Assembly: GCA_965209115.1 (NCBI GenBank)
Contig: CBDBQD010000002.1
Coordinates: 327,890-391,889 of the forward strand
Direction of reading: 5' to 3'
DNA length: 64,000 nucleotides
DNA from: Acidimicrobiales bacterium
GTDB taxonomy: Bacteria > Actinomycetota > Acidimicrobiia > Acidimicrobiales > CATQHL01
The position numbers were made by a program, and so were the translations under genes. Below are positions 52,092 through 53,332 of this stretch, piece by piece. Positions within the stretch are counted from its first letter, which is position 1; every line of letters begins with the position of its first letter. Below the pieces are notes generated by a model. It made no database searches. It worked only from the letters and a program-made list of their open reading frames with translations, and was not told the DNA's origin.

Positions 52092-52151
52092 GGCGCCGAT
52101 TTCGGGACCGGTCTACGGGCCGTCGAGGCGCAGGAGCAGACGTCGTGGTAC

Positions 52152-52532
52152 GTGAACGACGATCCGGTCCTGAACGGGCCGTCGCGGTACTGGTACCGGG
52201 GTGACGCCGGGCGGGGTTACGGGTCGAACAACTACCAGTTCACGTACGGGATCGCGGGGGAGTCGAGCGCGGAGAACTGGGCGCGCTGGTCGATGGGCCG
52301 CCGGGTGGGCCGCCAGGAGGTCGAGGTGTACGTGCCTCACACGAAGGCGACCGCCACGGTGGTCTACCGGATCGATGTGGGGGGCAGCGTGTTCACGCGG
52401 CGGGCAGCGCAGCGCGACGTCTCCGGTTGGACGTCCTTGGGCGGCTACGACGCCGACGGCGCGCGGGTGACGATCACGCTGCGCGACAACGACGCCCGCT
52501 CAGCGAGTGCCGAAGCGATATCTCGCCTTTGA
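52152..52532 (+). pseudogene. 5'-truncated paralog of the N-terminal module of the 57465..60398 secreted protein (no signal peptide)
   Basis: NDDPVLNGPSRYWYRG.AG.G.GSN.Y..TYGIAGESSA.NWARWSMGRRVGRQE... is shared with residues about 38-160 of the large protein. DNA similarity covers 52127-52492 versus 57554-57920. The frame opens right after the PCD stop, with no ATG and no leader. Confidence 0.55.
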
Positions 52533-52579
52533 GAGTCAGTCGTCTCCAACGCCATGGACCGTGGCCAGGTGACGATGAC

Positions 52580-53332
52580 GTGAGCATTTACTTTGATGAT
52601 TCGAACGAACTTAACCATAGGTTGTTGCGTTACGAGGGTGAGTTTGAATGGTTTGAACCAAACGAGATCAGGACGAGAGCTGCCGCTGAACGATTCCTTG
52701 AAGGTCAAGCAGGTGACATCCTCGAGACCTCTTCGTTTACTGAAAATGAACCGGAAACGAGCTACACTGGGAGCGAATTCAGATTCGACAATATCGCAGG
52801 AAAGTCTGACAATGCGCCCTTGCGGATAAGAGTCAGGGGAGTATACCGCTGCGAGCAATACACCCTTGAGTCAGATTGGAGTGAATGGCGCTATTGGTGG
52901 CCAGGAGACCCGGGTGAGTTGGATGCCCTTCAAGAAGATGCGAGAGACAAGCTGGATGGTTGCGAAGCCTTGGAATATGTTGATGACGCTCTTGAGGTCA
53001 TCGGACTTGGCTTCGCCGTATCCGAGGCCACAGGAGCGCAGAGTGCAAGGGATGCGATCAGGGCGTTGAGGCCCACGCGGGGAAGCCTCGGCCTGACAGT
53101 CGCACTAACCGCGGCGATAAAGGTCCTGAATTGCTATCCCAATGATATGACTGGCGAGCTAGAAATGGTCACTAGTCTGGTCCCTGTCGTTGGGTCTATC
53201 GTTGAACTGATGGGCATCACCGACTTTCTCCGAAATTACGAAATCTGCTATGATTTCAACGGAATTAATTCTCAAGACGGTGATGCCGCGATTGAAGCCA
53301 TAATGCAGAATTGTAGGGCCTTTAGGAGGTGA
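52580..53332 (+). CDS. hypothetical protein encoded by an AT-richer cassette (beta-rich N-terminal half, hydrophobic helical C-terminal half)
   Basis: Long ORF in a clearly lower-GC stretch. GTG 52580 is the first start after the stop of the truncated paralog. Hydrophobic helices: VIGLGFAV, LGLTVALTAAIKVL, VTSLVPVVGSIVELMGI. Confidence 0.5.
   Translation: MSIYFDDSNELNHRLLRYEGEFEWFEPNEIRTRAAAERFLEGQAGDILETSSFTENEPETSYTGSEFRFDNIAGKSDNAPLRIRVRGVYRCEQYTLESDWSEWRYWWPGDPGELDALQEDARDKLDGCEALEYVDDALEVIGLGFAVSEATGAQSARDAIRALRPTRGSLGLTVALTAAIKVLNCYPNDMTGELEMVTSLVPVVGSIVELMGITDFLRNYEICYDFNGINSQDGDAAIEAIMQNCRAFRR

What the first reader, a model, noticed from the sequence alone, without database searches (positions are those of the whole stretch)
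52127..53332. Leaderless 'orphan' copy of the secreted-protein N-terminal module joined to a different AT-rich cassette
Seen: 52127-52492 is a patchily diverged copy of 57554-57920, with long identical runs. It encodes the same module of about 120 aa (NDDPVLNGPSRYWYRG...WARWSMGRRVGRQE...AQRDVSGWTSLGGYDADG). Similarity starts precisely after the signal-peptide-coding part, so this copy has no leader and no ATG, and its frame opens at the PCD stop codon. In both loci the shared host-GC module is followed by unrelated, visibly AT-richer sequence. Here the frame stops at 52532, and a 250-aa ORF follows in another frame. Established: polymorphic toxin/CDI/Rhs loci keep promoterless orphan cassettes that share a conserved upstream segment used for recombinational swapping. 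Inference: these two loci may form an analogous cassette-exchange system in which the conserved N-terminal module is the recombination anchor.
Basis: partly seen in the sequence, partly recalled or inferred. Interest (0 to 1): 0.65.

Follow-up and report, generated by a model that had tools for sequence, protein, structure and literature searches.

The report
Broken copy of secreted-protein gene
The leaderless "orphan" is real, but it is most likely the wreck of a neighbouring member of a family of secreted, sugar-binding-type surface proteins. It is cut at both ends and knocked out of frame, so it does not look like a working cassette-swapping device.

Summary
The repeat is real. Bases 52127-52495 match 57554-57922 without gaps (87% nt, 82% aa).

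The module is the N-terminal domain of a family of Sec-secreted modular proteins. It has a CBM6/35-like fold and is distantly related to Pfam Golvesin_C. The family has 221 representative clusters, and its closest genomic relatives are Acidimicrobiales MAGs.

Copy A is a fragment:
- It starts inside the signal-peptide end, 36 nt after the stop of an intact PCD gene.
- It stops about 27 codons before the domain ends, losing two beta strands and the Cys pair.
- It is out of frame with the low-GC terminal unit that follows (CT1).

A second wreck lies just downstream. The family's signal peptide (53502) is fused to the start of an FN3 domain. After a frame break comes an FN3 end plus CT2, a C-terminal type found at the ends of at least 9 full-length relatives.

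Four metagenome contigs share this architecture, and CT1 changes between strains look neutral (9 nonsynonymous : 2 synonymous).

Against cassette exchange: no immunity gene, no in-frame junction motif and no second homology block were found. A is no closer to B than to proteins of other genomes.

The family as a whole is mosaic, with low-GC 3' ends. The cassette-exchange idea is therefore only partly supported, and this locus is best read as decayed paralogues.

The parts
51714..52091 (+). Intact pterin-4a-carbinolamine dehydratase (PCD) gene. Its TGA stop lies in the same frame as copy A, 36 nt upstream of where the module similarity begins.
   Evidence: Pfam Pterin_4a, E 3e-29, covering profile positions 3-91 of 91. 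Frame reading.
52092..52126 (+). Spacer between the PCD stop and the module. Its last 3-4 codons (..AVEA) still resemble the signal-peptide c-region. There is no hydrophobic core and no start codon.
   Evidence: Translation. The family profile match begins at 52119, profile position 15.
52127..52495 (+). Copy A: a fragment of the family's N-terminal CBM-like module. It covers profile positions 15-144 of about 178 and lacks both the signal peptide and the last ~27 residues of the domain.
   Evidence: 87% nt and 82% aa identity to 57554-57922. Every other module copy examined that is not cut by a contig end or a second tandem domain matches profile positions 2-178. The missing tail forms strands E136-139 and E142-148 in the AF2 model, pLDDT 92.8.
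52496..52579 (+). Junction and frame break. Similarity to the family ends here. Frame 0 closes at TGA 52530-52532 and the frame carrying CT1 runs through. GC starts to fall.
   Evidence: No trace of the module tail was found in any frame.
52580..53332 (+). CT1: a low-GC terminal unit (an FN3-like domain plus a helical C-terminal domain). The ORF is intact, 250 aa from GTG 52580 and open from 52427. It has no leader.
   Evidence: GC3 0.54. The open frame beats all 5000 shuffles. 24% identity over about 250 aa to the extreme C-terminus of family protein P0035, with a shared CYP[ND] motif. Strain differences are 9 nonsynonymous to 2 synonymous.
53333..53501 (.). Non-coding spacer with no credible immunity-type ORF. 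It is the most variable stretch between strains and includes a 1-nt indel.
   Evidence: ORF list. 6 differences in 169 nt, including the indel at 53501.
53502..53693 (+). A family signal peptide (MKSRIHLVVVVVVAVVAGLLGLVVVVSSVAAQKE) fused 3 codons after the cleavage site to the first strands of an FN3 domain (frame 0). The module is absent.
   Evidence: Direct comparison with the leaders of P0005 (MESRIHLVAMIVIAVLAGSLVPAAASSPAAAQEQ) and gene B. Residues 30-64 match FN3 starts of family proteins at 44-57% identity. KD19 hydropathy is 3.4.
53686..54300 (+). CT2: the end of an FN3-like domain plus a C-terminal domain. It is in frame 1, so there is a frame break against 53502-53693. GC is host-like.
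   Evidence: Homologous to the last ~150-190 residues of at least 9 full-length family proteins, including L002's 1496-aa protein, with E down to 1.6e-13. The metagenome strains carry a stop in this frame at 53605-53607, upstream of ATG 53686. GC3 0.86.
57465..60398 (+). Gene B: an intact family member. Its order is signal peptide, full module (57555-58004), Pro-rich linker, PPC domains, YdcK-type beta-solenoid and a low-GC helical C-terminus.
   Evidence: Start codon. Pfam PPC, B_solenoid_ydck and Bactofilin hits. Profile match to positions 1-178. Its C-terminal type is shared with 20 other family proteins.
56695..57265 (-). IS3-family remnant (orfA plus a short integrase-core tail) lying between the wrecks and gene B. 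The metagenome strain L012 diverges from the window at 57275 and carries the start of another IS3 orfA there.
   Evidence: ORF translations. rve_3 hit in L012. L012 tail.

Best explanation
Region 52092-54300 holds the decayed remains of two neighbouring paralogues of a family of Sec-secreted modular surface proteins. A full family member is built as signal peptide, then a ~150-aa CBM6/35-like (Golvesin_C-related) module ending in IGVDAIRMRC..C, then a Pro/Thr linker, then FN3/PPC/solenoid repeats, then one of a limited set of C-terminal units that are often low in GC.

Paralogue 1, the reported finding, has two lesions. It lost its promoter and signal peptide through a deletion that butts it against the stop codon of the PCD gene. 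It also lost the module tail and linker through an internal deletion, which put the terminal unit CT1 out of frame.

Paralogue 2 kept the signal peptide. It lost everything from codon +3 of the mature protein to an FN3 repeat, again with a frame break before its terminal unit CT2.

Neither fragment can yield a secreted, correctly folded family protein. They are gene remnants of the kind left by illegitimate or repeat-mediated deletions in a tandem paralogue cluster, in an IS-rich neighbourhood. CT1 is still an open frame, so its inactivation is either recent or it is tolerated.

Shown: the anatomy, the truncations, the frame breaks, the homologies, and the neutral pattern of substitutions between strains. 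Inferred: the order and mechanism of the deletions, and the absence of expression.
For: - Truncation at both ends: the family profile matches copy A only at positions 15-144. Every other module copy in 11 loci and in gene B that is not cut by a contig end or a second tandem domain matches positions 2-178. The tail is absent in all three frames.
- Structure: the AF2 model of the full module (pLDDT 92.8) places two beta strands in the missing tail. The tail also carries the family's invariant D and the near-invariant Cys pair.
- No leader: the frame opens at the PCD stop and the first start is GTG 52152, inside the first strand.
- Frame break between module and CT1.
- Second wreck: a family-type signal peptide at 53502 is fused to an FN3 start, and CT2 follows in another frame. 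CT2 matches the extreme C-termini of at least 9 family proteins.
- Tandem paralogues are normal for the family. L004 carries two adjacent genes with 94% identical leaders and modules.
- The same architecture, with the same stop and frame states, is present in four metagenome contigs from four samples.
- Selection: shared strain differences in CT1 are 9 nonsynonymous to 2 synonymous. This fits omega = 1 and rejects omega <= 0.2 at p < 0.01. The neighbouring ATPase gene shows 0:2.
- IS remnants and an exact 578-nt repeat nearby indicate a rearrangement-prone neighbourhood.
Against: - CT1 is still an uninterrupted 276-301-codon frame in DNA where the other two frames carry 12 and 30 stops. It also has a plausible AGGTGA Shine-Dalgarno 7 nt before GTG 52580 (read). 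It could therefore be expressed as a leaderless protein.
- The substitution test rests on only 11 changes. These cluster at the 3' end of CT1 and may have been imported together by recombination.
- The arrangement is fixed in five strain-level sequences, so it is not very recent.
- No transcript or proteome data are available.
- Low-GC 3' cassettes and mosaicism in the family leave room for a recombinational role of such fragments.
Confidence: 0.7

Rival explanations
1. Silent-cassette store. The fragments would be promoterless orphan cassettes of a polymorphic effector family. Recombination through the conserved module, or through FN3 segments, could load CT1 or CT2 onto an expressed gene such as B, as happens in CDI/Rhs loci.
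For: - The family is mosaic. There are 27 C-terminal types, and some pairs are 90-96% identical at the N-terminus with unrelated C-termini.
- GC3 of the 3' units is 0.40-0.54 against 0.8-0.94 upstream, in the window, L001 and L002.
- CT1 and CT2 each begin at or within the last FN3-like domain and are related to C-termini of full-length proteins elsewhere.
- The CT1 frame is intact.
- CDI orphans likewise lack initiation signals and are often disrupted by IS elements (PMC3150448).
Against: - The shared block ends inside the domain and CT1 is out of frame.
- A lies upstream of B and is separated from it by unrelated genes.
- With a single homology block, a crossover would delete 5.4 kb and produce a leaderless B. 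The duplication product would be a truncated, frameshifted hybrid (inference).
- No immunity-type ORF is present.
- A is not specifically related to B.
- No recombinant appears among five strain-level sequences.
- Of all module copies examined in other loci, the only partial ones are cut by a contig end or are second tandem domains within one ORF.
Confidence: 0.13
2. Independent small genes. The 126-aa ORF (52152-52532) and/or the 250-aa ORF (52580-53332) would be expressed as cytoplasmic proteins with a function of their own, for example CT1 as a leaderless helical protein.
For: - Gene callers call both ORFs in the window's genome and in JGI metagenomes (P0001, P0002, P0153).
- The CT1 frame is non-randomly open.
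- A Shine-Dalgarno-like AGGTGA lies 7 nt before GTG 52580.
Against: - The 126-aa product would lack three of the ~12 strands of the domain.
- CT1 changes between strains look neutral.
- CT1 has no homologue outside this lineage apart from the C-terminus of a secreted family protein.
- The scan found no promoter-like site upstream of either ORF.
- The AF2 model of CT1 was uninformative, pLDDT 34.
Confidence: 0.1
3. Assembly or sequencing artefact. The frame breaks and truncations would be indel errors or a chimeric join between paralogues.
For: - The neighbourhood contains paralogous repeats, including an exact 578-nt repeat.
- One metagenome contig (L003) shows many private, transversion-rich differences at its ends that look like errors.
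Against: Four independently assembled contigs from four samples reproduce the same joins, the same stop at 52530-52532 and the same frame states. The only indel across the 2.2 kb, at 53501, lies outside both breaks.
Confidence: 0.03

Closest known systems
Orphan cdiA-CT/cdiI and Rhs 'silent cassette' modules of polymorphic toxin systems (Poole et al. 2011, PMC3150448)
   Same: - It is a promoterless, start-less fragment of a large secreted protein gene.
- It keeps a stretch of the conserved part and carries a different C-terminal unit.
- That unit is related to C-termini of full-length genes in other genomes.
- The unit has lower GC, and IS remnants lie nearby.
   Different: - The conserved stretch is the N-terminal domain, not a junction motif next to the C-terminal unit.
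- The conserved stretch is truncated and out of frame with the C-terminal unit.
- The fragment lies upstream of the intact gene and is separated from it by unrelated genes.
- No immunity gene is present.
- No toxin domain is recognisable.
- No strain shows a reloaded cassette.
Golvesin_C (Pfam PF25275) / CBM6-CBM35-type carbohydrate-binding modules
   Same: - The model is a beta-sandwich of about 150 aa.
- Foldseek's best PDB matches are CBM35 (2w1w, 2w47), CBM6 (2cdp) and the Paenibacillus xanthan lyase structure (6f2p, TMq 0.70).
- Sub-threshold Pfam Golvesin_C hits fall inside the module in relatives.
- Partner domains in the family include the cell-wall hydrolase types CHAP, 3D and Amidase_3.
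   Different: - The window's own copies do not reach any Pfam threshold.
- No ligand is known.
- The family has its own conserved tail with a Cys pair.
- In close relatives the module has a fixed position directly behind the signal peptide.
Ordinary decayed paralogues (pseudogene fragments) in tandem gene clusters of repeat-rich surface proteins
   Same: - Loss of leader and start.
- A truncated domain.
- Frame breaks at deletion joins.
- A neutral substitution pattern.
- A neighbourhood containing IS remnants and repeats.
   Different: - The CT1 frame is still fully open.
- The arrangement is fixed in several strains.

Membership tests
CDI/Rhs-type orphan cassette (polymorphic toxin system) | The fragment lacks translation initiation signals and a leader | tested here: met
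   There is no ATG and no hydrophobic leader. The frame opens at the PCD stop.
CDI/Rhs-type orphan cassette (polymorphic toxin system) | The fragment lies directly downstream of the full-length gene, in an array | tested here: not met
   A lies 5.4 kb upstream of B. An AAA_16 ATPase gene, a nucleoside hydrolase gene (both on the minus strand) and an IS3 remnant lie between them.
CDI/Rhs-type orphan cassette (polymorphic toxin system) | A conserved junction motif sits immediately before the variable C-terminal unit and in frame with it (VENN, PxxxxDPxGL) | tested here: not met
   Homology ends inside the module, 27 codons before its end. CT1 is in another frame. The module tail is not detectable in any frame.
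CDI/Rhs-type orphan cassette (polymorphic toxin system) | A small cognate immunity gene follows each C-terminal unit | tested here: not met
   Only 169 nt of highly variable, indel-bearing spacer follow CT1. CT2 and gene B are each followed by convergent genes. An unrecognisable immunity gene cannot be excluded formally.
CDI/Rhs-type orphan cassette (polymorphic toxin system) | The C-terminal unit is related to C-termini of full-length proteins in other genomes | tested here: met
   CT2 matches at least 9 family proteins (E down to 1.6e-13). CT1 matches P0035 (24% identity over ~250 aa, E 3e-4).
CDI/Rhs-type orphan cassette (polymorphic toxin system) | The C-terminal unit has toxic activity, and strains differ by reloaded cassettes | not testable with these tools
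   Pfam, NCBIfam and PDB gave no hit to any toxin family. The AF2 model of CT1 failed. Five strain-level sequences show the same arrangement.
Golvesin_C / CBM6-35-like carbohydrate-binding domain | Sequence match to Pfam PF25275 at the gathering threshold | tested here: not met
   The window's copies give no hit. Relative P0029 scores 25.9 bits (cut-off 31.6) at residues 51-153, inside the module. 9 of 59 family proteins match at E <= 0.001, but the position of those hits was not checked for all.
Golvesin_C / CBM6-35-like carbohydrate-binding domain | Beta-sandwich fold of CBM6/35 type | tested here: met
   AF2 pLDDT 92.8. Foldseek top PDB hits are CBM35, CBM6 and xanthan lyase, with E 1e-4 to 1e-3 and TMq 0.53-0.70.
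Golvesin_C / CBM6-35-like carbohydrate-binding domain | Binds a carbohydrate | not testable with these tools
   Inferred only from the fold and from partner domains (CHAP, 3D, Amidase_3).
The module-bearing secreted protein family (unnamed; Acidimicrobiales MAGs among its hosts) | A Sec signal peptide directly followed by the complete ~150-aa module ending in IGVDAIRMRC..C | tested here: not met
   Copy A matches profile positions 15-144 only. Gene B matches 1-178 and meets the feature.
Pseudogene / gene remnant | Loss of start, a truncated domain, a broken frame, and relaxed selection | tested here: met
   CT1 shows 9 nonsynonymous to 2 synonymous changes, rejecting omega <= 0.2 at p < 0.01. 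Lack of expression was not tested.

The most novel reading that the evidence does not exclude
The module family could be an undescribed Sec-dependent polymorphic effector or surface system, with Acidimicrobiales MAGs among its hosts. In this reading, a CBM-like N-terminal domain kept nearly identical between tandem paralogues serves as the common 5' recombination target. Low-GC terminal units (an FN3-like domain plus a helical or enzymatic C-terminus) would be exchanged horizontally. The window's two wrecks would then be displaced or stored cassettes from such exchanges, still able to donate CT1 or CT2.
Probability: 0.12. Interest if true: 0.6.

Novelty: new member of a known kind. Interest (0 to 1): 0.25.

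Why it matters
For this locus, the result is mainly an annotation warning. The 126-aa and 250-aa 'genes' that gene callers report here are most likely pieces of one broken gene. The stretch at 53502-54300 is a second broken gene.

The by-product is more useful. The work delimits an uncharacterised family of secreted proteins with these features:
- 221 representative clusters, with the closest genomic relatives in Acidimicrobiales MAGs.
- A confidently modelled CBM6/35-like N-terminal domain.
- A restricted repertoire of C-terminal units.
- Markedly low-GC 3' ends.

If those units prove to be exchanged between genomes, the family would be a candidate polymorphic surface or effector system in a poorly studied, mostly uncultured lineage.

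Tried and rejected
- Module tail in the CT1 frame. I first thought the tail continued in the CT1 frame after a 22-nt deletion (..LSECRSDISPLRVS against ..LAASRIGVDAIRMR). A family profile run without filters finds nothing in any frame, so I dropped the idea.
- Long identical runs as gene-conversion tracts. The same runs are conserved in L001 and L002 DNA, so I rejected this.
- L003 as evidence on selection. About 25 private, transversion-rich differences hit invariant residues at the contig end. They are absent from L012, L013 and L014, so I treated them as errors and used only shared differences.
- Recurrent leaderless fragments in another genome (L015). The downstream FN3/PPC ORF belongs to a separate large gene with its own signal peptide, split by a run of N. 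Rejected.
- CT1 structure. The AF2 model had pLDDT 34 and was unusable, so I ran no fold search on it.
- Direct Pfam and NCBIfam searches on the module, CT1 and CT2 gave nothing above threshold. A PDB sequence search with the module profile found nothing.
- Rfam found nothing in 51000-61000. The promoter/terminator scan found nothing relevant. The repeat search found only short, chance-level repeats at the breakpoints.
- The first metagenome scan, with the narrow alignment, found nothing.
- Word-indexed protein searches with the module and CT1 found only the same lineage.
- Exact look-ups of gene B (three candidate starts) and of P0001 found no record.
- Programmed frameshifting. The two breaks go in opposite directions (-1 and +1), I saw no slippery heptamer in 52427-52532, and the domain is truncated anyway (inference).
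Full report
**1. The observation**

The repeat exists as described.
- Bases 52127-52495 align without gaps to 57554-57922. The match is 369 nt at 87.0% identity (blastn E 3e-128), or 82% identity over 123 residues. 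No third copy is present in the window.
- The copy at 57554 belongs to a large ORF whose real start is ATG 57465. Its product begins MNCRIRFVAVVVAAVLAGSLAPAAASSPAAA|QEQTSWYVNDDP.
- Copy A begins to resemble it at ..A|QEQTSW, which is the signal-peptidase site. A family profile extends the match only 3-4 codons further upstream, to 52119.
- Upstream of copy A there is no hydrophobic segment and no ATG. The reading frame is that of the PCD gene (51714-52091; Pfam Pterin_4a, E 3e-29, full length). It opens directly after that gene's TGA. The first possible start is GTG 52152.
- The frame closes at TGA 52530-52532. Another frame is open from 52427 to 53332, giving 250 aa from GTG 52580.
- GC3 falls from 0.94 in the module to 0.54 in 52580-53329. 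In gene B it falls stepwise from 0.94 to 0.53 in the last 265 codons.

**2. What the module is**

- An exhaustive HMMER search finds 221 representative clusters with E <= 0.001.
- Of 182 domain occurrences in the best 150 proteins plus the window's gene B and the L001 and L002 proteins, 122 lie within the first 80 residues, directly behind a signal peptide. 29 proteins carry two copies.
- The domain is about 150 aa, longer than the 123 aa shared by A and B. It ends in a conserved tail..ASQHxxRxGxxxSxIGVDAIRMRCVxxC. The tail holds one of the family's invariant residues (D) and a near-invariant Cys pair.
- An AlphaFold2 model of the full domain is confident (pLDDT 92.8, pTM 0.88). It is a beta-sandwich, and the tail contributes two strands, E136-139 and E142-148.
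- Foldseek's best PDB matches are carbohydrate-binding modules: CBM35 (2w1w, 2w47), CBM6 (2cdp) and the Paenibacillus xanthan lyase structure (6f2p, TMq 0.70). E values are 1e-4 to 1e-3.
- The window's copies hit no Pfam or NCBIfam model. Relatives give sub-threshold hits to Golvesin_C (PF25275) inside the module; P0029 scores 25.9 bits against a cut-off of 31.6. 9 of 59 family proteins match that model at E <= 0.001.
- Partner domains are FN3 arrays (39 of 59), PPC, YdcK-type beta-solenoid, CHAP, 3D and Amidase_3.
- The nearest genomic relatives are 1,496- and 1,527-aa proteins of two Acidimicrobiales MAGs, at 70-72% identity.
- I infer a glycan- or cell-wall-binding N-terminal domain of secreted surface proteins. 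Binding itself was not tested.

**3. Copy A is truncated at both ends and out of frame**

- A profile built from the family matches copy A only at positions 15-144. Every other copy I could examine that is not cut by a contig end or a second tandem domain matches positions 2-178. That set is gene B plus module copies in 11 loci from genomes and metagenomes. The same lineage's L003 behaves like copy A.
- With all filters off, the tail is not detectable in any of the three frames downstream of 52495.
- A product started at GTG 52152 would therefore lack the leader, part of the first strand and the last two strands.
- The sequence that follows (CT1) is in a different frame.
- CT1 is real coding sequence. 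Its frame runs 276 codons in the scored segment, in DNA where the other two frames hold 12 and 30 stops. None of 5000 shuffles reaches that length.
- CT1 aligns over about 250 residues (24% identity, shared CYP[ND] motif) with the extreme C-terminus of P0035, a 1,073-aa family protein. The aligned unit starts at the first strand of an FN3-like domain, near 52570.
- The simplest history is a short family gene built as signal peptide, module, linker and CT1 unit. That gene then suffered a 5' deletion reaching the PCD stop, and an internal deletion of tail and linker that shifted the frame. This history is inferred.

**4. A second wreck lies next to it**

- At 53502 an ORF begins MKSRIHLVVVVVVAVVAGLLGLVVVVSSVAAQKE. 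This is plainly the family leader. Compare P0005 (MESRIHLVAMIVIAVLAGSLVPAAASSPAAAQEQ) and gene B.
- Three codons after the cleavage site it runs into the start of an FN3 domain, which is 44-57% identical to FN3 starts in family proteins.
- Around 53685 the homology changes frame. From ATG 53686, in frame 1, come the end of an FN3-like domain and a C-terminal domain (CT2).
- CT2 matches the last 150-190 residues of at least 9 full-length family proteins. These include the L002 protein (28% identity over 194 aa; E 4e-13 against the family set and 6e-23 in a five-sequence comparison).
- In the metagenome strains, frame 1 carries a stop upstream of 53686.
- Both fragments retain the codons around the cleavage site, so they cannot be two halves of one gene. 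They derive from two paralogues.
- Tandem paralogues are normal in the family. L004 carries two adjacent genes whose leaders and modules are 94% identical and whose remainders differ.

**5. Population evidence**

- Four contigs from four JGI samples (L003, L012, L013, L014) are 98-99% identical to the window. They show the same joins, the same stop and the same frame states. This rules out an assembly artefact.
- I disregarded L003's private differences, which look like errors. The shared differences in CT1 are 9 nonsynonymous and 2 synonymous.
- That ratio fits omega = 1 (P = 0.54) and is unlikely for omega <= 0.2 (P < 0.01). The adjacent ATPase gene shows 0:2.
- The sample is small. The changes also cluster at 53250-53620, so they may have been imported together.

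**6. The cassette-exchange idea**

CDI and Rhs orphans have four defining traits (PMC3150448). They lie downstream of the main gene. They keep the junction motif in frame with the C-terminal unit. They are followed by an immunity gene. Strains exist in which a deletion has reloaded a cassette.

Here the picture is different:
- The fragment is upstream of B, with an AAA_16 ATPase gene, a nucleoside hydrolase gene and an IS3 remnant between them.
- The shared block ends inside a domain and is out of frame with CT1.
- There is only one homology block.
- The 169 nt after CT1 are the most variable stretch between strains and carry an indel.
- B is followed by a convergent ABC permease gene.
- A is as close to P0006 from another metagenome (81.5%) as to B (82%). 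B is closer to P0005 (84%) than to A.
- The identical runs are also conserved in other species.
- No recombinant is seen among the strain-level sequences.

By inference, a crossover between A and B would delete 5.4 kb and leave B without its leader. The reciprocal duplication product would be a frameshifted hybrid lacking the module tail.

**7. What remains in favour of the idea, at family level**

- Among 102 family proteins of at least 450 aa, plus CT1 and CT2 from the window, the last 220 residues fall into 27 types. The largest are the B type (21 members), the CHAP type (12), the CT2 type (12) and the L001 type (9).
- Some pairs are 90-96% identical over their first 160-430 residues and unrelated afterwards.
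- GC3 of the 3' units is 0.40-0.54 in three genomes whose upstream parts have 0.8-0.94.
- The family therefore evolves by replacement of 3' units, probably with horizontal input.
- Whether fragments like those in the window ever serve as donors is open. I give that about one chance in eight.

**8. Verdict**

- The object is best explained as two decayed paralogues in a cluster of an uncharacterised family of secreted, CBM-bearing surface proteins (confidence 0.7).
- The orphan-cassette interpretation is partly supported as a description and not supported as a mechanism.
- Interest for the locus itself is low. The family is worth a note.

Noticed in passing
window 55655-56232 and 63423-64000: An exact (100%) 578-nt direct repeat that runs off the window end. 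It covers the 3' part of the nucleoside hydrolase gene (55655..56614, minus strand). The two copies are 7,768 nt apart and bracket the IS3 remnant, gene B and the ABC permease genes. It is a far better recombination substrate than the 87% module pair. It could be a recent segmental duplication or an assembly issue.
   Followed up: partly
window 57275 onward, against L012 5166-5402: Metagenome contig L012 follows the window up to 57274. It then carries the start of an intact IS3-family orfA (MSTMREDSRSGPVLAPGR..) instead of the region upstream of gene B. This is strain polymorphism at the IS boundary.
   Followed up: partly
window 53250-53620: Strain differences between the window and the metagenome contigs are concentrated here, about 18 in 370 nt including a 1-nt indel at 53501. 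By contrast, 53700-55560 has 2 differences in 1,860 nt. This looks like an imported tract or a local hypervariable stretch rather than uniform decay.
   Followed up: partly
L001 12900-14515, L002 12200-14278, window 59601-60395: The 3' ends of full-length family genes have GC3 of 0.40-0.53 in genomes where the same genes have 0.8-0.94 upstream. This is a family-wide compositional break that suggests horizontally exchanged terminal units.
   Followed up: partly
L004 1-4496, also L005 and L006: Two tandem family genes have 94% identical leader and module, but different middles and different CHAP-type C-termini. Several family proteins carry two modules in tandem.
   Followed up: partly
L008 9875-10615 against L009 2710-4629 and L010 3883-5802: The same leader and module is followed in L008 by a long poly-Pro run and a stop at 247 aa. 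In L009 and L010 the same leader and module are followed by a different continuation to 640 aa. The Pro-rich linker may be a hotspot for frame loss or for assembly error.
   Followed up: no
window 16083-19580 (minus strand): A 1,165-aa ORF with an N-terminal hydrophobic segment, an N-terminal region of about 490 aa that was not scanned against any domain library, a long FN3 array and a C-terminal hydrophobic segment. It has no module, and it matches the family only through its FN3 repeats.
   Followed up: no
window 54345-55538 (minus strand): A 397-aa AAA_16 / STAND-like ATPase lies immediately after the wrecks. It is almost invariant between strains, with 2 synonymous changes. Its function and any link to the family are unknown.
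   Followed up: no
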